DNA from: an uncultured Alphaproteobacteria bacterium
GTDB lineage: Bacteria > Pseudomonadota > Alphaproteobacteria > RF32 > CAG-239
DNA length: 64,000 nt
NCBI GenBank assembly: GCA_944391705.1
Contig: CALXUN010000004.1
Coordinates: forward strand, 13,126 to 77,125
Reading direction: 5' to 3'
Numbering within the stretch: the first letter of the stretch is position 1; every line of letters begins with the position of its first letter. A program made the translations under genes and the position numbers. The notes under the pieces are model-generated. The model searched no databases, was not told the origin of the DNA, and worked only from the letters and a program-made list of their open reading frames with translations. Positions 3,194 to 19,253 of the stretch are shown piece after piece.

Positions 3194-4423
3194 TTAAACA
3201 AGTTCTTTTATTTCGGCCTGCAATACGCTGATTTTGTATTCCCGCAGCCGTTCTTTAAAAGTTTCATCCTTGGGAAGTTTATTAAAACCCGGGACATCTT
3301 CGGCTTTAACCGTTTCAATCACCCGGCAGGCAAGTTTCAGCTTTTCGGCGCTCGGGGCAAATTCTGACCTTTGTTTGTCTGTTGATATCGTGCTTTCAAA
3401 ATCAGCCCGACACACGTCAATATATTCATTAACATAGCATGTATGCCCTATTGTCATTTTGTCAGCCAGATCATACAAACTTCCGACACGCATTACCGGA
3501 ATATAATGAAACTTCATATGCTGCTCGGCCGCCATGGTCGCAAAATCCCGAAAACGATTCGGTGTTTTAAGACGGTTGCAAATTTTATAAACCAACTGCC
3601 GGCTCTGGCTTTCATGTTTTTTATGCGAGGGAAGCTCTTCTTCGGGCGTCAAAAGTTTGCCGACATCGTGCACCAAAAGACCAAATTTAACCAACACCGG
3701 GCTTTTTTCTGCCAATTTCAAGGCATGCAGGACATGAGCCCCGGTATTCCCTTCAGGGTGAAATTCCGTACGTTCCGGAACTTTCCACAGGGCATCTATT
3801 TCCGGCAGAATAATTTTTAAAGCGCCAATCTCGCGCGCCAACTCAATAAACCGGTAAAAAGCCGGTGTTTTCATGGCTTTTAAGAGCTCAATCCAAACCC
3901 GCTCGGCCGTCAGATGTTCTAGCATCCCTTTTTGAACCATTGAGCGGCACAGTTCAACGGTAGCCGGTGCGGCATCAAAATCAAGCTGTGCAGAAAACCG
4001 ACAAAGGCGCAAAACCCGGAGAGGATCTTCCACAAAATGTTCAGCATTGACATGACGCAGAATTTTATTTTTGATGTCATCTTGTCCGCCGAAATAATCA
4101 ATATATTCCCCGGCTTCCTCATCATAAGCAATTGCATTACAGGTAAAATCGCGCCGTTCCAAATCTTCTCTTAAAGTAACGGATTCATCAAAAATAAATT
4201 CAAAATCCGTATGTTTATCGCCGGTTTTGATTTCTTTGCGCGCCAGAGCATATTCTTCCCGCGTCAGCGGATGCAAAAAAACCGGAAAACCTTTGCCGAC
4301 TTCCGTAAAACCTTGTTTAATCATTTCATCGGGCGTTGAGCCGACCACGACATAATCACTGTCATTTGGAATTCTTCCCAAAAGTCTGTCGCGTACGGCA
4401 CCGCCGACCTGATATATTTTCAC
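3194..4423 (-). CDS. cca: CCA tRNA nucleotidyltransferase / poly(A) polymerase family with HD domain
   Basis: 409 aa. N-terminal GGAVRDxLLG...DxDxV pol-beta motif plus a C-terminal HD domain (HDVGK). Confidence 0.85.
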   Translation of the reverse strand: MKIYQVGGAVRDRLLGRIPNDSDYVVVGSTPDEMIKQGFTEVGKGFPVFLHPLTREEYALARKEIKTGDKHTDFEFIFDESVTLREDLERRDFTCNAIAYDEEAGEYIDYFGGQDDIKNKILRHVNAEHFVEDPLRVLRLCRFSAQLDFDAAPATVELCRSMVQKGMLEHLTAERVWIELLKAMKTPAFYRFIELAREIGALKIILPEIDALWKVPERTEFHPEGNTGAHVLHALKLAEKSPVLVKFGLLVHDVGKLLTPEEELPSHKKHESQSRQLVYKICNRLKTPNRFRDFATMAAEQHMKFHYIPVMRVGSLYDLADKMTIGHTCYVNEYIDVCRADFESTISTDKQRSEFAPSAEKLKLACRVIETVKAEDVPGFNKLPKDETFKERLREYKISVLQAEIKELV

Positions 4424-6210: not shown

Positions 6211-6256
6211 TTGCTGTAGACGCATATTATTAAGGGCGCTTAGCTCAGTTGGTTAG
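6211..6256 (+). repeat. Direct repeat copy 1: 23 bp promoter-proximal sequence plus first 23 nt of the tRNA (truncated 5' tRNA fragment 6234..6256)
   Basis: 46 bp identical to 6452..6497 (ttgctgtagacgcatattattaagggcgcttagctcagttggttag), then diverges. Confidence 0.8.
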
Positions 6257-6451
6257 CTTGAGGATAAAAAATTTGCTTAGAAGCAAATTTTTTGACGAAA
6301 GGTGCCGTGAAGTTAGGTTGGGAGGGAAGCGACAGCAACCGAACCAACCGTTACGAACAAACGACAGGAGCGGCGTTAGTGAGCCCGCGGCGAGCTTTAC
6401 GTAGCGACTACGGCCCGGCTCTTGTGAAGAAAGAAAAGGCAGTTTTATAAA
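6257..6451. repeat. GC-rich ~195 bp insert, member of a window-wide short interspersed element family, flanked by the 46-bp duplication
   Basis: Composition is unlike the flanks. It shares motifs with the inserts at 12047-12180 and 16700-16810 (gcgacagc, ttagtgagc, cgaac) and contains the hairpin aaaaatttgcttagaagcaaatttttt at 6267..6293. Confidence 0.6.
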
Positions 6452-6474
6452 TTGCTGTAGACGCATATTATTAA

Positions 6475-6551
6475 GGGCGCTTAGCTCAGTTGGTTAGAGC
6501 CGGCCGCTCATAACGGTCTGGTCGTTGGTTCGAGTCCATCAGCGCCCACCA
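6475..6551 (+). tRNA. tRNA with CAT anticodon (elongator Met or lysidine-Ile2; close to E. coli ileX-like pattern)
   Basis: Hand-folded cloverleaf: acceptor gggcgct/agcgccc, anticodon loop ctCATaa, T-loop ttcgagt, discriminator A, encoded CCA. Confidence 0.8.
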
Positions 6552-6555
6552 TAAT

Positions 6556-6586
6556 AAAAACCTCTCCCTCAGCGGGGAGGTTTTTA
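6556..6586 (+). terminator. Rho-independent terminator after tRNA
   Basis: cctctccctcagcggggagg hairpin followed by TTTTT. Confidence 0.7.
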
Positions 6587-6986: not shown

Positions 6987-8621
6987 ATGGAGATATTTTT
7001 CATCTTCGGGCGTATTAAGCTCATAGTAATATTCCAACAACTCCCGGGAATAATCTTCAATCCGTCCTTCCGGCAAAACCAGCATACGGCTGATGCCGAT
7101 TTGTTCCACAAATGACGGGTTATGGCTGACCACTAAAATCGTTCCTTCAAACAAATTAAAGTTACGGCCGATAACCGCCTGTGTTTCCGGATCCAAATGA
7201 TTGGTCGGTTCATCCAGAATCAGCAAATTTGCCCGCTGCAGCAAAACCTTGCAAAGAGCAATCCGTGCTTTTTCACCGGGAGACAAGACGGCTGTCTTTT
7301 TATGGACATCTTCATCATAGAATAAAAAATTGCTCAAAATCGAACGCAGCTGCCATTCATTATACCCTTCGGTTTCAACATTTTCCAAAATTGTTTTTTC
7401 CAAATCAATCTGCTCCAGTTCCTGAGCATAATAAGCCACGTCGGTTTTCGGATTATAACGGATTTGTCCGTGTTCCGGAACCAAAATTCCCATAATCAAT
7501 TTTAAAAGAGTCGATTTGCCCACACCGTTTTCACCGACAACCAGAAAACGCTCCCGACCATTTAAAAAAAAGGATAATTTTCGATAAAGCAGCCTCTGCC
7601 CCGGATATCGGAAAGAAAGTTCTTCCACCGCCAACGGTATACGGGCGCCCTCTCTTTTGGGACGGATATCCATCTTGACCTGACGATACGTCCGTTCGCG
7701 TGTTAAAAGCTGGCTCTTTTTCTTTTCCAAACGCAATGCCCGTTCCTGCCCCATACGTTTAAGCGCATGGTTGGTCTGGCTTGCCTGATTGGCACGCCGC
7801 ACAAATTCCTCAAGCTTTTTGATTTCCTTTTCCTGACGATCAATCAGCATATTCCTTGCCTTTTGTTCTTCGGCCCGTTTTTTTTGATAAACCGAATAAT
7901 TGCCGTCATAAACGGAAATTTTATGCGTTACTTTATTAATAAACATGACCTTGTTGATAATCTGATTTAAAAAATCAACATCGTGACTGATAATCAGCAC
8001 CATACCTTTATAACGCTTCAGATAATCAATAACAAAATCCCTGGTTGCCGCATCAAGATGGTTTGTCGGCTCATCCAAACATAAAATATCAAATTTCGAA
8101 AACAGCACCCGGGCAAATGCCATTTTAGATTTTTGCCCGCCGGAAAGCTCTTTCATCGGCTTATCCAATAAATCCGGATTAATATTCATTTTTTCAATTA
8201 AGACCAGCAGTTCGTCATCGGCCTCATATTGTCCGTAATAATCCAGCTCTTCCTGCAATTTCGCCACTTTTTCAAGCAACGCCGGATGTTCGGCCTCACC
8301 GGCCGTTTCCAGCCTTTTATAAACCTCTGCCAGTTCAGCGTTGATTTTGCGCAGCGGACGGCCGTCATTCAAATAATCCCACACGGTCATATTTTCATCT
8401 TCAAGAACAATCTCCTGCGGCAGATATCCGGCTCTGGCCTTTCCGATATCCAGCTCACCGCTGTCCGGTTTTATTTCTTTTAAAAGAAGCCTGAACAAAG
8501 TTGTTTTGCCGGCGCCGTTAACCCCGACGACACCGACTTTATCCTGTCCGTTTATCTGAAATTCTGCATCATCATAAATAATTTCAGATCCGAAAGATAA
8601 ATTTATATGGCTTCCTCTCAT
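6984..8621 (-). CDS. ABC-F family ATPase (two ABC cassettes, EttA/Uup-like)
   Basis: 545 aa with two Walker A (GVNGAGKTT, GENGVGKST), two LSGGQ-like signatures (LSGGQKS, LSPGEKA) and a charged KKRAEEQKARN linker; no TMD. Confidence 0.85.
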   Translation of the reverse strand: MRGSHINLSFGSEIIYDDAEFQINGQDKVGVVGVNGAGKTTLFRLLLKEIKPDSGELDIGKARAGYLPQEIVLEDENMTVWDYLNDGRPLRKINAELAEVYKRLETAGEAEHPALLEKVAKLQEELDYYGQYEADDELLVLIEKMNINPDLLDKPMKELSGGQKSKMAFARVLFSKFDILCLDEPTNHLDAATRDFVIDYLKRYKGMVLIISHDVDFLNQIINKVMFINKVTHKISVYDGNYSVYQKKRAEEQKARNMLIDRQEKEIKKLEEFVRRANQASQTNHALKRMGQERALRLEKKKSQLLTRERTYRQVKMDIRPKREGARIPLAVEELSFRYPGQRLLYRKLSFFLNGRERFLVVGENGVGKSTLLKLIMGILVPEHGQIRYNPKTDVAYYAQELEQIDLEKTILENVETEGYNEWQLRSILSNFLFYDEDVHKKTAVLSPGEKARIALCKVLLQRANLLILDEPTNHLDPETQAVIGRNFNLFEGTILVVSHNPSFVEQIGISRMLVLPEGRIEDYSRELLEYYYELNTPEDEKYLH

Positions 8622-11537: not shown

Positions 11538-11975
11538 ATGACGATTAAAAAAATCATACTGATTTCAAGTTTATGTCTGACCATTCTTCCATTAACATCT
11601 GTGCAGGCCCGCAACATTCGTTACGGCTATAATGCACAAGGCGATTATGTTCCGGTTAAAATTGACGGCCGGCGTGTCCGCTACGGCTATAATGCACAAG
11701 GCGATTATGTCGCCAAATCAATCGGCGATGATAACATCAGATACGGCTATAATGCACAAGGCGATTATGTACCGGTTGAAATCAACGGCCGACGCATCCG
11801 CTACGGCTACAATGCACAAGGTGATTATGTCATTAAATCAATCGGCGATGATAACATCGGTTATGGTTACAATGCACAAGGCGATTATGTCATTAAATCA
11901 ATCGGTGATAATAACATCGGTTATGGTTACAATGCGAAAGGCGATTTTGTTCCCACTTCCTTTGGCAGGTTTTAA
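11538..11975 (+). CDS. Secreted repeat protein, 6 x 20-aa RYGYNAQGDYV-containing repeats
   Basis: AAGGAAA RBS, a 24-aa signal peptide, then six tandem 20-aa units alternating between two subtypes; terminator downstream. Confidence 0.65.
   Translation: MTIKKIILISSLCLTILPLTSVQARNIRYGYNAQGDYVPVKIDGRRVRYGYNAQGDYVAKSIGDDNIRYGYNAQGDYVPVEINGRRIRYGYNAQGDYVIKSIGDDNIGYGYNAQGDYVIKSIGDNNIGYGYNAKGDFVPTSFGRF
11619..11972 (+). repeat. Tandem repeat, 60-bp period x ~6 (higher-order 120-bp A/B alternation), coding
   Basis: Units share near-identical stretches such as ctacggctataatgcacaaggcgattatgt. Confidence 0.85.
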
Positions 11976-12027
11976 GACAAATGACTGAATACGAAAAAGC
12001 CCGTCCTTAAAAGGACGGGCTTTACTT

Positions 12028-12046
12028 TGGCTCCGACTATCTGATT
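12028..12046 (-). repeat. Orphan 19-nt copy of the tRNA-Asn 3' end (att-like direct repeat)
   Basis: tggctccgactatctgatt is identical to 12275..12293 (3' acceptor/T-stem of tRNA-Asn) and follows a terminator. Confidence 0.7.
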
Positions 12047-12274
12047 GGGTACTCCCGCCGGAAAACTGATTTTTTTAATTTGTATATCCTGCAACGGCGG
12101 GTCCTCCTCGCGTCGTAAGGTTCAAACGTCGCATTTCGCCAAGCGATTTGCTAGGCTCAACGCTCGTTTTCACCAACTTCCCGCTCCGAACAGATGACCA
12201 TCGGTCATCTGTTCAAATCAGTTCCGAACGCACATGCAAAAAGCCCATCCTTTTTCAAGGATGGGCTTTATTTT
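12047..12274. repeat. 230-bp remnant segment between tRNA-Asn and its 3'-end duplicate; contains a GC-rich insert-family sequence and a 28-bp palindrome
   Basis: GC-rich stretch 12047..12180; palindrome gaacagatgaccatcggtcatctgttc (12188..12214) built from T-arm sequence; second terminator 12240..12270. Confidence 0.55.
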
Positions 12275-16504: not shown

Positions 16505-16581
16505 CGGATTGTAGTTCAGCCTGGTAGAACGCTTCGTTCGGGTCGAAGAGGTCGCTGGTTCGAGTCCAGTCAATCCGACCA
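16505..16581 (+). tRNA. tRNA-Pro (CGG)
   Basis: Acceptor cggattg/caatccg, anticodon loop ttCGGgt with G37, T-loop ttcgagt, discriminator A, CCA encoded. Confidence 0.8.
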
Positions 16582-16584
16582 AAT

Positions 16585-16613
16585 AAAAAAGCCGCCTTTA
16601 CGGCGGTTTTTTT
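16585..16613 (+). terminator. Rho-independent terminator after tRNA-Pro(CGG)
   Basis: gccgcctttacggcgg hairpin followed by a T7 run. Confidence 0.7.
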
Positions 16614-16619
16614 ATGTGG

Positions 16620-16815
16620 TATGAAAATGGGAGAAGAACCAGCGACCTCGATAGAGGCTCGAGGATAAAAACAACCGGAGTAGCGGTTGTTTTTACCGCA
16701 AGAGGCGCCGTTTTGTTATTTGAGTGAGACGAGCGACAGCCGGCGAAACGAAATCTACAAAACAAGTGACCGACGCGCGGTTAGTGAGCGTCTAGCGAAC
16801 TTACCAAGCGAGAGA
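16620..16815. repeat. GC-rich insert-family segment; carries an inverted partial tRNA-Pro T-arm copy at 16631..16650
   Basis: Shares gcgacagc / ttagtgagcg / cgaac motifs with 6257..6451. Composition contrasts with the AT-rich flanks. Confidence 0.55.
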
Positions 16816-16840
16816 GGTTCGAGTCCAGTCAATCCGACCA
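16816..16840 (+). repeat. 25-nt exact copy of the tRNA-Pro(CGG) 3' end (att-like direct repeat) followed by its own terminator
   Basis: ggttcgagtccagtcaatccgacca equals 16557..16581; terminator aaagcctgtcttttagacaggttttttt at 16849..16877. Confidence 0.8.
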
Positions 16841-16994
16841 TCAAACATAAAGCCTGTCTTTTAGACAGGTTTTTTTGTTTGATAATTGCGTTAGCAATGG
16901 ACACGAACCAGCGAACGCTGGTTTGACTACAAGCGAAAGGCGGGCGGCAGAACGCCGGTCGGCTGATAAGCCGATGAGCGTAGTGAACGAAGTA

Positions 16995-17006
16995 GTCCAG
17001 TCAATA
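16995..17006 (+). repeat. Third, degenerate tRNA-Pro 3'-end fragment (agtccagtcaat) followed by a terminator
   Basis: 12-nt match to the T-stem/acceptor region; terminator aaaaacctgtctttttagacaggttttttt at 17018..17047. Confidence 0.5.
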
Positions 17007-17046
17007 AGGACCAAATAAAAAACCTGTCTTTTTAGACAGGTTTTTT

Positions 17047-17661
17047 TCATACTTGCTGACGTTTCCGGTATTCAGCACAAAGCAGCTCATACTCCAAAGC
17101 TTTTAACGGCGAATAAGCATCTTCCAGTTCATCAAACAAAACACTTATCCGGACACTGATCTCCGAAGTTGTCATCTGCGGAATTTTTTCTTTAAGTATG
17201 GCCAATAAATATTCCTGAGCCGCCTTTTCATCCCGACCAGCAGCTGCCGTATAAATAATGACATCCCCGCAGCAAAGCTTATTCAGCGACTTGTTTTTTC
17301 GATAACAAATAATCAAAACAACCATGGTTGACAAACAAACCGCTAACGCCACAATGAAAAAAATTCCAAGCCGGTCCGAACCATAAACCATGGCAAAATA
17401 TAAACAAACAGCCAGACAACCAACAATCAGAATGACAGAAAGGCTCCAGTTCAAAGCAAACTCAATAACGGACTGTCCTTTATCAACCGCTTTAGCCGTC
17501 TTCTCATTCGGAGCAAAAATTACCCACGGAGATTTTATGAAAAAACGATTCCGCATAAAGGTAAACATCATCAGGCCTTTTTCTTCCGGAACAACGCCAA
17601 ATCTGTCTTTAAACCACATAAAAGCGTCCTGCTGCAACTTTTTATTATCCATAATAATCAT
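17047..17661 (-). CDS. Hypothetical membrane protein (204 aa, 2 TM segments)
   Basis: ORF with hydrophobic core segments; no family recognized. Lies between the tRNA-Pro fragments. Confidence 0.45.
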   Translation of the reverse strand: MIIMDNKKLQQDAFMWFKDRFGVVPEEKGLMMFTFMRNRFFIKSPWVIFAPNEKTAKAVDKGQSVIEFALNWSLSVILIVGCLAVCLYFAMVYGSDRLGIFFIVALAVCLSTMVVLIICYRKNKSLNKLCCGDVIIYTAAAGRDEKAAQEYLLAILKEKIPQMTTSEISVRISVLFDELEDAYSPLKALEYELLCAEYRKRQQV

Positions 17662-17830
17662 AATTTAATTGTTCGACATAATCATAAAATTTAACCGTAC
17701 AATACAAAAAACATGCAGAATTTGCAACATTTTTCTCAAACCCCAAATTTATATTTACATTTTATACAAACCCGGTTAAATTATTTTTCGAAAGCAAATC
17801 TTTTATGTTTAATTATTAAAACTTATACTT

Positions 17831-18055
17831 ATGGAACAATTCAAACTGATTGTAACGGTATGGGCCGGTTTAACTTGTTTGGTCTGTTTATTCATGCTCT
17901 GGATGTTTCCCCGGCTGGGACAGAAAGAGATATTCTATCTCCCTGATGAGCACCTAAAAAAAACCAAAAAATTTGTTTTAAGATGCCTTTATTTCCTTAT
18001 TTGCTGGTTGCTCATTTTCGTCTGTTTTTGTATGTACTATTATATAAAGTGCTGA
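17831..18055 (+). CDS. Small hydrophobic protein (74 aa)
   Basis: Two TM-like segments; terminator hairpin ccggttgtttataaaaacaaccgg downstream. Confidence 0.3.
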   Translation: MEQFKLIVTVWAGLTCLVCLFMLWMFPRLGQKEIFYLPDEHLKKTKKFVLRCLYFLICWLLIFVCFCMYYYIKC

Positions 18056-18111
18056 AAAATCTTATCCGGTTGTTTATAAAAACAACCGGATAAATTCTAT
18101 ACCGGATTTTA

Positions 18112-18202
18112 CCTTTCGCTGGTAGTCGAACCGTCCCCCGACGGTTCAAATCCGAGCCCCGACATTAAAAAAGAGGCCGCTTCCAGCTGGCCTCTTTTTG
18201 GA
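18112..18202 (+). repeat. 91-bp direct repeat copy 1: degenerate plus-strand tRNA-Pro-like 3' end plus terminator
   Basis: About 90% identical to 18274..18364. Contains gacggttcaaatccg T-arm-like sequence and the terminator gaggccgcttccagctggcctc. Confidence 0.7.
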
Positions 18203-18273
18203 TCAGAACAGGCGGATGACTTCGTTCACTGGCGCTCATCGGCTTATCAGCCGACCGGCGTTCTTCAAGCCCG
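18203..18273. repeat. 71-bp segment that is the inverted complement of 16935..17000
   Basis: cgctcatcggcttatcagccgaccggcgttct...gcccgc is the reverse complement of gcgggcggcagaacgccggtcggctgataagccgatgagcg. Confidence 0.7.
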
Positions 18274-18364
18274 CCTTTCGCTGGTAGTCGAACCGTCTTG
18301 CCGACGGTTCAAATCCGGGCCCCGACATTAAAAAAGAGGCCGCTTCCGGCTGGCCTCTTTTTGG
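18274..18364 (+). repeat. 91-bp direct repeat copy 2
   Basis: See copy 1; its 3' end overlaps the 3' end of the minus-strand tRNA-Pro(TGG). Confidence 0.7.
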
Positions 18365-18438
18365 TCGGGACAGGCGGATTCGAACCGTCGGCATCTTGCT
18401 CCCAAAGCAAGCGCTCTACCAGGCTGAGCTATGTCCCG
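18362..18438 (-). tRNA. tRNA-Pro (TGG)
   Basis: Acceptor cgggaca/tgtcccg, anticodon loop ttTGGga, T-loop ttcgaat, discriminator A, CCA encoded. Confidence 0.8.
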
Positions 18439-18613
18439 TTTATATTCAATATATAAGCCTAATAATTTTCTTCAAAGAGCAAGATGCCTCGGCATCTTTC
18501 TTGCTCCATAAGTTTCGCTTTTTCCAAAGCTCAACAACTCCGCTTCGGTCATAGTTACTGTAACATTCGCTTTGTTCGCTTGCACGCTCACACGCTCTTT
18601 AACCGTAACTACC

Positions 18614-18658
18614 CTGAAACTAAAAAAACTTTTCACCGGAAACTTTTTTTAGTTTCAG
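18614..18658. repeat. Perfect 15-bp-stem inverted repeat (ctgaaactaaaaaaa / tttttttagtttcag) abutting the truncated tRNA half
   Basis: Seen directly; the 15-nt loop is cttttcaccggaaac. Confidence 0.7.
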
Positions 18659-18698
18659 CCCAAAGCAAGCGCTCTGACCTAAGCTGAGCTATGTCCCG
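18659..18698 (-). pseudogene. Truncated tRNA-Pro 5' half (acceptor through anticodon loop TTGGG), pseudo-tRNA
   Basis: The first 40 nt match the tRNA-Pro(TGG/GGG) genes, then the sequence diverges into an inverted repeat. Diverged partial 3'-half anticodon-stem copies (gagcaaga..gatgcc..) at 18476..18508. Confidence 0.55.
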
Positions 18699-18733
18699 TT
18701 TTTAACTTTGCAAAATAATATTTTTGATTTTTA

Positions 18734-18810
18734 TGGTCGGGACGAGAGGATTCGAACCTCCGACTTCTTGCACCCCATGCAAGCGCTCTACCAGGCTGAA
18801 CTACGTCCCG
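18734..18810 (-). tRNA. tRNA-Pro (GGG)
   Basis: Acceptor cgggacg/cgtcccg, anticodon loop atGGGgt, T-loop ttcgaat, discriminator A, CCA encoded. Confidence 0.8.
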
Positions 18811-19046
18811 TTAATTTACCATAACTTTACAATAATTTTCTAAACCGTGCAAGAAGTCTCCGACTTCTTGTCTTGCTCCGTAAGCCTCGCTTTGTCATGC
18901 TCGGCAACTTCGCTTCGGTCACGCCTTTACAACAATTTCTGTTTTTCTATATATCTGCTGTTTAAAAATTGCAAGAAAAATCTGCCACATACACAAAGGT
19001 AAAATTTAAACTTGACATATACGCATACCTGGTATATGTATAAAAT

Positions 19047-19085: not shown

Positions 19086-19253
19086 ATGAGTAAATGCAAC
19101 AATCCGAATTGTCATTGTGAAAACTGCCAATGCGGTGATAATTGTCAATGCGGCAAAGAGTGCCGTTGCGGCGAAAATTGCACCTGTGGTGAAAATTGCC
19201 AATGCACCAAGGACAATAAATGTAATCCTGATTGCAACTGTGATAAAAAATAG
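19086..19253 (+). CDS. Cys-rich metallothionein-like peptide (55 aa, 16 Cys; MSKCNNPNCHCENCQCGDNCQCGKECRCGENCTCGENCQCTKDNKCNPDCNCDKK)
   Basis: Hand-translated; AAGGAG RBS 8 nt upstream of the ATG, repeated C-x-C-G-x-N-C motifs, TAG stop at 19251. Below the 60-aa cutoff of the ORF track. Confidence 0.6.
   Translation: MSKCNNPNCHCENCQCGDNCQCGKECRCGENCTCGENCQCTKDNKCNPDCNCDKK

What the first reader, a model, noticed from the sequence alone, without database searches (positions are those of the whole stretch)
16505..18930. tRNA-Pro cluster (CGG, TGG, GGG) embedded in a field of tRNA fragments, duplicated terminators and inverted segments: an integration/excision hotspot
An intact tRNA-Pro(CGG) is followed by two further copies of its 3' end (an exact 25-nt copy at 16816 and a degenerate copy at 16995), each with its own terminator. 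1.1 kb downstream are two 91-bp direct repeats carrying degenerate plus-strand tRNA 3' ends. These flank a 71-bp segment that is the exact inverted complement of 16935..17000. Further on are a truncated 5' half of tRNA-Pro butted against a perfect 15-bp-stem inverted repeat, and partial diverged copies of the 3' anticodon-stem half upstream of each minus-strand tRNA-Pro. Two hypothetical membrane-protein genes (17047..17661, 17831..18055) sit inside. The pattern of serial attL/attR-like 3'-end duplications fits repeated site-specific integration and decay at tRNA-Pro, yet no integrase remains.
Basis: seen in the sequence. Interest (0 to 1): 0.65.

Follow-up and report, generated by a model that had tools for sequence, protein, structure and literature searches.

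The report
tRNA-flanking structured repeat cassettes
The "tRNA debris" around three proline tRNA genes is mostly ordered copies of small, gene-less repeat units, each a conserved folded core framed by sequences copied from the neighbouring tRNA; the best-studied unit family sits beside many different tRNA genes in gut and rumen Alphaproteobacteria and matches no catalogued RNA family.

Summary
One detail is overstated: the "exact 71-bp" inversion is 91% identical, with 32 nt exact. The pieces are not random scars. They form units: terminator, antisense copy of the tRNA's own T-arm, sense T-stem plus TTYGA, conserved core, the tRNA's last 19 nt including CCA, terminator.

The "B" core occurs twice in full and once truncated in the window. 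A degenerate pattern found it in 84 gut/rumen metagenome contigs (97 copies). Of these, 71 lie just downstream of a same-strand tRNA, covering 12 amino-acid isotypes. The arms always match the local tRNA.

The core shows strong covariation, tandem G·A to Watson-Crick swaps and GNRA loops (55/65). It has no Rfam match and no genuine phage or plasmid hit.

Other core families (A, C, D) flank tRNA-Met, tRNA-Asn and the 5' sides of tRNA-Pro(TGG) and tRNA-Pro(GGG). A 97-99% identical strain differs by whole units, by permuted terminators and by one gene. None of the 20 window ORFs tested is an integrase.

Best reading: a mosaic of tRNA-gene-specific structured cassettes that turn over by recombination. 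Whether they act as RNA or as mobile DNA is unresolved.

The parts
16505..16581 (+). tRNA-Pro(CGG)
   Evidence: ARAGORN; Rfam tRNA, 62.7 bits
16586..16613 (+). Terminator T1 of tRNA-Pro(CGG)
   Evidence: Hairpin plus T-run. In strain L001 this same terminator is the most distal one in the array.
16636..16840 (+). Unit with core A. Antisense tRNA 44-57 at 16636-16649; GATA-looped hairpin at 16643-16661; internal A-run/hairpin/T-run at 16667-16694; core to 16815; exact copy of tRNA 53-77 at 16816-16840.
   Evidence: The core is 98.8% identical in L001. Related cores occur in L131, L089, L117 and L107 and upstream of the window's tRNA-Met.
16849..16876 (+). Terminator after unit A
   Evidence: It shares an 18-nt exact repeat with the next terminator (D16).
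16895..17013 (+). Full core-B unit. Antisense T-arm at 16898-16913; hairpin H1 at 16905-16926; core at 16927-16993; tRNA-like last 19-20 nt at 16994-17013.
   Evidence: Covariance model R1, 80.1 bits, E 7e-21; coordinates
17019..17047 (+). Terminator after the core-B unit
17047..17661 (-). 204-aa ORF enclosed between the convergent B units. Not shown to belong to the elements.
   Evidence: no Pfam family above cut-off; two hydrophobic segments; also present in L001
17831..18055 (+). 74-aa ORF enclosed between the convergent B units. Not shown to belong to the elements.
   Evidence: no Pfam match; two hydrophobic segments
18112..18162 (-). Truncated terminal B unit: antisense T-arm, H1 and the first 16 nt of the core
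   Evidence: R1 hit 18065-18157, 32 bits. L001 carries only this form at this site.
18167..18198 (-). Terminator after the full B unit of tRNA-Pro(TGG)
   Evidence: (D2)
18199..18325 (-). Full core-B unit on the minus strand. 3' arm at 18199-18217; core at 18218-18287; H1 at 18288-18310; antisense T-arm/acceptor copy at 18299-18325.
   Evidence: R1, 78.6 bits, E 2e-20. Absent from strain L001.
18330..18361 (-). Terminator of tRNA-Pro(TGG)
18362..18438 (-). tRNA-Pro(TGG)
18439..18698 (-). 260-bp D-type insertion on the 5' side. Promoter-like stretch at 18439-18476; hairpin of tRNA 38-49 sense plus antisense at 18477-18507; core D at 18508-18613; A-run/hairpin/T-run at 18614-18658; displaced tRNA 5' fragment (1-38) at 18659-18698.
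   Evidence: The whole segment is absent from L001, where the TGG and GGG tRNAs are 35 nt apart.
18734..18810 (-). tRNA-Pro(GGG)
18811..18960 (-). D-type element upstream of tRNA-Pro(GGG). Its hairpin of that tRNA's own 38-53 (sense plus antisense) lies at 18847-18879.
   Evidence: (D10, D13, D14). A homologue sits upstream of tRNA-Pro(GGG) in L101.
12028..12225 (-). Outside the finding: same architecture downstream of tRNA-Asn. Antisense T-arm plus H1 at 12187-12225; core C; last 19 nt of the tRNA at 12028-12046.
   Evidence: In L001 an intact acetyltransferase gene occupies the place of core C.
6211..6497 (+). Outside the finding: A-type element upstream of tRNA-Met, bracketed by an exact 46-nt duplication (promoter region plus tRNA 1-23) at 6211-6256 and 6452-6497

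Best explanation
The region is a mosaic of small (about 130-260 bp), gene-less elements that live only beside tRNA genes. It is not the wreckage of ordinary prophage or island integrations.

Each 3'-side unit has these parts in order:
- a terminator;
- an antisense copy of the neighbouring tRNA's T-arm;
- a short loop;
- a sense copy of the T-stem 5' strand plus TTYGA;
- a conserved core inserted exactly between T-loop positions 58 and 59;
- the tRNA's last 19 nt including CCA;
- another terminator.

Folded as a single strand, the antisense arm pairs with both sense pieces (helices H1 and P1). This clamps a three-way-junction core: helix Pa, a GNRA-capped P2, and P3 with tandem G·A pairs. The acceptor 3' strand and NCCA are left as a tail. 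Mirror-image 5'-side units (core D, core A) displace a tRNA 5' fragment and leave an intact tRNA behind a promoter.

Shown: the architecture, its conservation and covariation, its restriction to tRNA flanks across 12 amino-acid isotypes, tandem and mixed arrays, and gain, loss and replacement between near-identical strains.

Inferred: the units are selfish cassettes that are inserted or copied by a trans-acting enzyme using the local tRNA gene as target and template. Arrays then turn over by recombination between the repeated tRNA ends and terminators. The folded core is the recognition module. The fold could act as DNA or as RNA; I favour a DNA-level element.
For: - Unit anatomy and coordinates.
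- The same B core occurs in 84 metagenome contigs, 97 copies. Of these, 71 lie downstream of a same-strand tRNA. The first unit of an array starts 58-85 nt after the tRNA; further array members start 234-347 nt after it. The tRNAs are Glu, Pro, Ser, Gln, Gly, Asn, Lys, Met, Ala, Phe, Trp and Arg.
- Most of the remaining copies sit at contig ends or behind another unit's tRNA-like end.
- The 3' arm is almost always exactly the last 19 nt and is 88-91% identical to the local tRNA. The antisense arm matches the T-stem and T-loop at 65-85%, but the acceptor only at a random 31%.
- Structure: 77% of cells paired versus 67% in shuffles (0/500). Covariation score 0.248 versus 0.108 shuffled and 0.05-0.07 when slid. 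GNRA loops close P2 in 55/65 units.
- H1 has 30 G·U pairs but only 2 A·C mismatches, so the fold is on the tRNA-sense strand.
- Mixed arrays carry different cores at one tRNA: window tRNA-Pro(CGG) has A then B, and L136 carries two B subtypes.
- Arrays end in units truncated at variable points.
- A D-type element is inserted inside a B unit's T-arm copy in L162.
- The D core lies in the opposite orientation relative to the tRNA in L094 compared with the window.
- One terminator type follows the same core subtype at three different tRNA-Pro genes, while the arm between them is locus-specific.
- Strain L001 differs by whole units, by terminator order and by an acetyltransferase gene.
- Metagenome contigs break at the tRNA-Pro(CGG) site.
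- The terminator-to-arm spacer looks too short for a promoter of the unit's own (by eye).
- Rfam has no match.
Against: - No enzyme has been identified. None of the 20 window ORFs tested is an integrase, reverse transcriptase or transposase.
- No circular form and no clean empty site without core remnants was seen.
- All strain differences could also arise by unequal crossing-over, deletion or allelic replacement, without true transposition.
- A B unit is conserved downstream of tRNA-Pro(CGG) in another species (L008, glyA 80% identical) with compensatory changes. That fits in-place selection for a host function as well as it fits element turnover.
- GNRA loops, tandem G·A pairs, co-orientation of every B unit whose upstream tRNA could be identified, and a terminator after every unit are what a transcribed RNA gene would show.
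- The 84 contigs were retrieved with a pattern taken from the core. Invariance of the pattern positions is therefore built in, and the census of tRNA loci is biased.
Confidence: 0.45

Rival explanations
1. The units are host non-coding RNA genes. They are transcribed by read-through of the tRNA terminator and folded by the tRNA-derived arms. They end in a tRNA-like NCCA tail, so the tRNA 3'-processing or CCA machinery handles them. They would act in tRNA metabolism, for example as a decoy or regulator for an enzyme that reads the T-arm or acceptor end.
For: - Strong covariation, GNRA loops and tandem G·A to Watson-Crick swaps.
- Strand-specific G·U pairs.
- Every B unit whose upstream tRNA could be identified is co-oriented with it and is followed by an intrinsic terminator.
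- H1, P1 and the core are maintained while the acceptor complement has decayed. This is differential constraint.
- Conservation at the same locus in another species, with compensatory changes.
- Four of the six tRNAs in the window have a flanking unit, five if the 5'-side insertion at tRNA-Pro(TGG) is counted.
Against: - No room for a promoter was seen, and a strong terminator stands in front of each unit (by eye).
- The D/E core occurs in both orientations relative to tRNA transcription. In the window it lies behind a terminator-like hairpin.
- Several unrelated cores share one architecture.
- Units differ between 97-99% identical strains and are often truncated.
- No expression data could be examined.
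Confidence: 0.3
2. One reading: the tRNA-end copies are attL/attR scars left by repeated site-specific integration of conventional integrase-bearing elements. These elements later lost almost all of their DNA (CIME-like accretion and decay).
For: - Direct repeats of the tRNA's last 19-25 nt, each with a terminator.
- Proximal and distal terminators differ in a way that fits an incoming element bringing its own terminator: tRNA-Asn and tRNA-Pro(CGG) in L001 versus the window.
- The T-loop and anticodon loop are classic crossover sites of tRNA-targeting integrases (established knowledge; Williams 2002, cited from memory).
Against: - What lies between the repeats is a conserved, covarying core, not decayed cargo.
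- The core splits the T-loop 5|2 with no duplicated 7-nt overlap.
- An antisense T-arm copy is part of every unit.
- The same core is found at 12 isotypes with locally matched arms.
- There is no integrase among the window ORFs tested, and no hit in 2.9 million viral contigs or in plasmids.
Confidence: 0.15
3. The pattern is an assembly artefact or chance similarity among A/T-rich intergenic hairpins.
For: Metagenome assemblies break or may chimerise at these repeats. Contigs L003-L006 end at the tRNA. L119 joins a tRNA-Ser-type 5' arm to a tRNA-Pro-type 3' arm.
Against: - The same architecture appears in independent assemblies and samples, and in the window itself at four loci.
- Shuffle expectations are near zero.
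- Covariance-model hits reach E 1e-20 or better.
Confidence: 0.02

Closest known systems
attL/attR tRNA 3'-end duplications and tandem accretion of integrase-less elements (CIMEs) at tRNA genes
   Same: Direct repeats of the tRNA 3' end bound each unit. Units form arrays next to an intact tRNA. There is strain-level gain and loss, and the crossover-prone T-loop or anticodon loop is involved.
   Different: Units are 130-260 bp with no genes and no integrase. They contain a conserved structured core and an antisense T-arm copy. The core splits the T-loop without a duplicated overlap. The same core serves 12 isotypes.
Intergenic palindromic repeat elements: REP/BIME/REPIN, Rhizobium RIMEs, Rickettsia palindromic elements, MITEs
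   Same: They are small, non-coding, hairpin-forming, multi-copy and variable between strains. The host range includes Alphaproteobacteria. A- and D-type elements have short imperfect terminal inverted repeats (CTTGC...GCAAG).
   Different: Known families are not restricted to tRNA flanks. They do not carry arms copied from the neighbouring gene, and they do not regenerate the target gene. No fixed short target-site duplication is seen here.
Folded single-strand recombination sites: CTX-phi attP(+) hairpin (XerCD) and integron attC
   Same: An inverted copy next to a sense copy lets one strand fold into a duplex replica of the chromosomal target, here T-arm positions 49-65. The cassettes form arrays. 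The structure is conserved more than the sequence.
   Different: No dif or attC boxes (GTTRRRY) are present, and no IntI or Xer link has been shown. The target replica is interrupted by a conserved three-way junction. This is a resemblance only and was not tested.
tRNA-like RNAs: tmRNA (including the permuted alphaproteobacterial form), YrlA, viral tRNA-like structures
   Same: The 3' end is identical to a tRNA T-stem 3' strand, acceptor strand and CCA. A structured domain sits where the rest of the tRNA would be. The GGTTYGAC string recalls the tmRNA 5' region.
   Different: There is no acceptor 5' strand (the complement has decayed), no intact T-loop (it is paired in H1) and no tag ORF. ARAGORN and Rfam do not call them. 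There are many isotype-specific versions rather than one gene.
IS200/IS605 PATEs and omega/reRNAs (conserved scaffold followed by a guide copied from the flanking target)
   Same: A conserved structured scaffold is followed directly by about 19 nt identical to the local target flank. Insertion is immediately 3' of a fixed short motif (TTYGA).
   Different: There is no TnpA, TnpB or IscB nearby. The right end of the core is not conserved. An upstream antisense arm and duplicated terminators are not features of that family. An intact target (the tRNA) persists next to the 'guide'.

Membership tests
Integrase-mediated integration at a tRNA gene (attL/attR) | Direct repeat of the tRNA 3' segment bounding the inserted DNA | tested here: met
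   25-nt exact and 19-nt copies
Integrase-mediated integration at a tRNA gene (attL/attR) | Tyrosine or serine recombinase gene within or next to the element | tested here: not met
   The 20 window ORFs scanned are housekeeping or unannotated. The L001 gene table shows no integrase. The rest of the genome is not available.
Integrase-mediated integration at a tRNA gene (attL/attR) | The overlap (crossover) segment is duplicated at both junctions | tested here: not met
   The T-loop is split TTYGA | (A)AT around the core, with at most 1 nt shared. 5'-side D units show a possible 7-nt overlap, but it coincides with the conserved element end.
Any Rfam 15 RNA family | Covariance-model score at or above the family's gathering threshold | tested here: not met
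   Only the tRNAs pass. The weak cow-rumen-1 hit (21 bits, cut-off 53) is on the opposite strand and does not recur in 20 other loci.
tmRNA / tRNA-like gene | Acceptor stem, T-arm with intact T-loop, tag ORF or cloverleaf | tested here: not met
   ARAGORN finds none. The acceptor complement is at random identity, 31%. T-loop bases are paired in H1.
MITE / classical IS derivative | Element-specific terminal inverted repeats and a fixed short target-site duplication | tested here: inconclusive
   The inverted arms of B units are target-derived, not element-specific. A and D types have weak CTTGC...GCAAG ends but no short duplication; instead they show 34-46-nt duplications of promoter plus tRNA 5' end.
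Integron cassette / attC | R''/L''...L'/R' boxes (RYYYAAC...GTTRRRY) and a nearby IntI | tested here: not met
   The GGTTYGAC region does not fit GTTRRRY (read from alignment A1). No integrase was found.
Structured single-stranded element (RNA or ssDNA) under selection for its fold | Compensatory base changes exceeding shuffled and slid controls | tested here: met
   Covariation 0.248 versus 0.108 shuffled (0/500) and 0.05-0.07 slid, on a MAFFT alignment not fitted to the structure. GNRA loops in 55/65 units.
Phage- or plasmid-borne element | Presence on viral contigs, phage genomes or plasmids | tested here: not met
   0 hits in IMG/VR and 0 in PLSDB. The single 'phage' record is a mislabelled bacterial fragment.

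The most novel reading that the evidence does not exclude
These are a previously undescribed class of tRNA-gene-specific, gene-less mobile cassettes. Their single-stranded form folds into a duplex replica of the tRNA gene's T-arm (antisense arm paired to the two sense pieces), with a conserved GNRA-capped three-way junction emerging exactly at T-loop position 58/59. In effect this is a hairpin 'att-site mimic' plus recognition module. An unidentified trans-acting recombinase or polymerase would use it to insert next to any tRNA gene, re-templating the arms from the local tRNA and leaving the tRNA intact.
Probability: 0.2. Interest if true: 0.85.

Novelty: new variant of a known kind. Interest (0 to 1): 0.72.

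Why it matters
tRNA genes are the classic landing sites for mobile DNA, but the scars there are usually dismissed as decay. Here the "scars" are ordered, conserved and structured. They are tailored to each tRNA, in organisms (uncultured gut and rumen Alphaproteobacteria) that are barely studied.

- If they are mobile, they imply an unknown insertion mechanism that copies target sequence into the element and spares the tRNA.
- If they are RNAs, they are a new, abundant tRNA-linked RNA class with an unusual T-arm clamp.
- Either way they explain why assemblies of these genomes break at tRNA genes, and they provide a covariance model for finding the family.

Tried and rejected
- Rfam at permissive thresholds on the window region and on 40 locus searches found no family. 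The cow-rumen-1 lead did not recur.
- A hammerhead reading of 'CUGAUGAG' was rejected, because the CU belongs to a covarying stem and Rfam is silent.
- tmRNA or permuted tmRNA was rejected: ARAGORN and Rfam find real ones elsewhere (L121, L162) but not in the units.
- The idea of a long palindrome centred on the terminator and reaching the CCA was rejected as a general feature. The acceptor part of the antisense arm is at random identity, with L149 the exception.
- IS200/IS605 PATE with omega-RNA was considered and not adopted. The scaffold-plus-flank logic fits, but the right end is not conserved, no TnpA or TnpB is present, and an intact target lies adjacent.
- IS110 bridge RNA was rejected: its guides are 4-7 nt, not 10-19 nt, and no recombinase is present.
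- Reverse-transcription models (a stop at a modified A58 giving the 19-nt arm) could not be made to yield the observed order of segments.
- The phage hit MT837473 proved to be bacterial (DsbD, MnmA, QueH).
- Literature searches found no description of such units.
- L111 (a core fragment without a tRNA) gave no clue.


Full report
OBSERVATION

ARAGORN and Rfam find six tRNAs in the window. Three are proline tRNAs inside the finding: CGG at 16505-16581 (+), TGG at 18362-18438 (-) and GGG at 18734-18810 (-).

- The exact 25-nt copy of the CGG 3' end lies at 16816-16840, and a degenerate copy at about 16994 (D11/D3).
- The two roughly 91-bp direct repeats at 18112-18202 and 18274-18364 are 86/91 identical.
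- A 40-nt copy of the 5' half of tRNA-Pro(TGG) lies at 18659-18698, next to a 19-nt inverted repeat.
- Hairpins made of each tRNA's own positions 38-49/53 lie upstream of the two minus-strand tRNAs.

One detail is overstated. The inverted segment (16920-16993 versus 18218-18294) is 91% identical (69/76), and only 32 nt are exact. Shuffles give 0.00-0.04 expected matches for the core patterns, against 2-3 observed.

ANATOMY

Laid against the tRNAs, the fragments form units. Downstream of a tRNA the order is:
1. terminator;
2. antisense copy of the tRNA's T-arm;
3. a short A/G-rich loop;
4. sense T-stem 5' strand plus TTYGA;
5. a core;
6. the tRNA's last 19 nt including CCA;
7. terminator.

tRNA-Pro(CGG) has two such units. 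One carries core A (about 165 nt, 16636-16840) and one carries core B (70 nt, 16895-17013). On the other strand, tRNA-Pro(TGG) has one full B unit (18199-18325) and a truncated one (18112-18162). The 'inverted 71 bp' is simply the two B cores facing each other.

The same architecture occurs outside the finding:
- Downstream of tRNA-Asn, with core C (12028-12225).
- In mirror image upstream of tRNA-Met, with an A-type core bracketed by an exact 46-nt duplication of promoter plus tRNA 1-23 (6211-6497).
- Upstream of tRNA-Pro(TGG) and tRNA-Pro(GGG), with core D.

ORGANISM AND STRAIN VARIATION

The glyA gene places the window in uncultured gut Alphaproteobacteria; the best species-representative MAG is 80% identical. 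A metagenome scaffold 97-99% identical to the window (L001) differs exactly at the units:
- It lacks the 260-bp D-type insertion, so its TGG and GGG tRNAs are 35 nt apart.
- It lacks the full B unit at tRNA-Pro(TGG) and keeps only the truncated one.
- It has a diverged B core at tRNA-Pro(CGG).
- Its terminators are in a different order.

At tRNA-Asn, L001 has an intact 200-aa acetyltransferase gene abutting the antisense-arm hairpin. In the window, core C, the 3' arm and a terminator replace all but the first four codons of that gene. Several other contigs carrying this region end at the tRNA, as expected of a repeat. In 20 tRNAs from other alphaproteobacterial loci, only L008 showed a comparable fragment.

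A WIDESPREAD FAMILY

L008, a different species, has a B unit downstream of its tRNA-Pro(CGG), with compensatory changes in the hairpins. A degenerate pattern from the four available copies found 84 gut and rumen metagenome contigs and no viral contig.

Of 97 copies, 71 lie behind a same-strand tRNA. The first unit starts 58-85 nt after the tRNA; second and third units of an array start 234-347 nt after it. The tRNAs are Glu, Pro, Ser, Gln, Gly, Asn, Lys, Met, Ala, Phe, Trp and Arg. Most of the rest are at contig ends or behind another unit's tRNA-like end. Two contigs carry permuted, alphaproteobacterial-type tmRNA.

The arms always match the local tRNA:
- The 3' arm is almost always exactly the last 19 nt and is 88-91% identical to the tRNA along its whole length.
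- The antisense arm matches the T-stem 5' strand (85%), the T-loop (79%) and the T-stem 3' strand (65%). It matches the acceptor only at a random 31%.

Tandem arrays are common, and some mix core subtypes (L136, L169; window A then B). Arrays usually end in a unit truncated at a variable point.

STRUCTURE

The test used a MAFFT alignment of 65 non-redundant units that was not fitted to any structure. A five-helix model was scored on it: P1 (antisense arm with the T-stem 3' copy), H1, Pa, P2 and P3. Results:
- 77% of cells form standard pairs, against 67% in shuffles (0/500).
- The covariation score is 0.248, against 0.108 shuffled and 0.05-0.07 with slid partners.

Further features:
- Pa switches among G-C/A-U and C-G/G-C/U-A/A-U pairs. 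It also alternates tandem G·A/A·G with Watson-Crick pairs, as does the base of P3.
- P2 is closed by a GNRA tetraloop in 55 of 65 units, where about 3% would be expected.
- H1 contains 30 G·U pairs but only 2 A·C mismatches, so the fold is selected on the tRNA-sense strand.

A covariance model (R1) finds only the three B copies in the window (80, 79 and 32 bits). It finds 105 hits in the fetched loci. Rfam 15 has no matching family. Plasmids give no hit, and the single 'phage' hit is a mislabelled bacterial fragment with tRNA-Met plus a B unit.

OTHER FAMILIES AND NESTING

Cores A and D recur in other contigs. They share a left end: CTYGNAGGATAAAAA, a hairpin, then TTTTT.
- In L162, one D copy sits 5' of tRNA-Arg after nucleotide 7, with a 34-nt duplication of promoter plus tRNA start. 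Another D copy is inserted into the T-arm copy of a terminal B unit.
- In L094, two units downstream of tRNA-Ser carry the reverse complement of the window's D core. This family therefore occurs in both orientations relative to tRNA transcription.
- One terminator type (ATAACATAG...CTATGTTATTTTTTT) follows the same B subtype at tRNA-Pro(GGG), tRNA-Pro(TGG) and tRNA-Pro(CGG). The 19-nt arm between core and terminator is locus-specific. Ordinary homologous recombination does not easily explain this, which points to arms being templated from the local tRNA.

INTERPRETATION

I favour (0.45) a mosaic of tRNA-gene-specific, gene-less structured cassettes that behave as selfish elements. The reasons are:
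- several unrelated cores share one architecture;
- arrays are mixed and units are nested;
- the D core occurs in both orientations;
- units appear to lack their own promoters;
- arrays have truncated ends;
- near-identical strains differ by whole units.

The main rival (0.30) is a host RNA made by terminator read-through. It is supported by the GNRA loops, by co-orientation of B units with their tRNAs, by a terminator after each unit, by differential conservation of H1, P1 and the core, and by cross-species conservation.

The decayed-scar reading keeps 0.15 and artefact 0.02.

The insertion mechanism is not shown. The most novel reading still open is that the arms make a single-stranded duplex replica of the T-arm, an att-site mimic, interrupted at position 58/59 by a recognition module.

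LIMITS

- The contigs were retrieved with a pattern from the core, so invariance of those positions and the tRNA census are biased.
- No expression data, no whole genome of the organism and no enzyme candidate were available.
- RNA and single-stranded DNA folding cannot be told apart from sequence alone.

Noticed in passing
window 11985-12000 versus L001:14158-14760: A 200-aa Mac/hexapeptide acetyltransferase gene is intact in strain L001. In the window it is reduced to its first four codons and replaced by core C, a tRNA-Asn 3' arm and a terminator.
   Followed up: yes
window 11622-11950: 60/120-nt tandem repeats (4.5 copies, 82-88% matches) lie inside a minus-strand coding region next to the tRNA-Asn locus. 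The copy number differs in contigs L001 and L002.
   Followed up: partly
window 19086-19253: A small Cys-rich ORF (55 aa) with 18-nt repeats encoding C-x-C motifs looks metallothionein-like. It lies just upstream of a CsoR-type metal repressor and FeoAB.
   Followed up: no
window 3194-4423 (-): A CCA-adding enzyme gene (PolyA_pol head plus HD domain) is present even though all six tRNAs and all unit 3' arms encode CCA.
   Followed up: no
L172 (GenBank MT837473.1) 6307-6560: This record, deposited as 'Bacteriophage sp.' from a faecal virome, is a bacterial chromosomal fragment (DsbD, MnmA, QueH). It carries tRNA-Met followed by a core-B unit.
   Followed up: yes
L119:5571-5900: A unit has a tRNA-Ser(CGA)-type antisense arm and H1, but a tRNA-Pro(GGG)-type 3' arm and terminator. 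This is either a real recombinant between two loci or an assembly chimera through the shared core.
   Followed up: no
L090 (minus strand, about 8000-8150 in reversed coordinates) and L103:388-470: Arrays of B units start behind tRNA-Lys sequences that lack the 5' third or half (they begin near position 27-32). ARAGORN does not call them. They may be 5'-disrupted or split tRNA genes.
   Followed up: no
L093:4375 region: tRNA-Gly(GCC) is followed by antisense copies of its positions 57-69, twice at 214-nt spacing, plus a 3'-end copy with no B core. This is probably yet another core family.
   Followed up: no
window 18278-18339 (+): A weak Rfam cow-rumen-1 match (21 bits, cut-off 53.4) lies on the strand opposite the B unit. 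It did not recur in 20 other loci, so it is treated as chance.
   Followed up: yes
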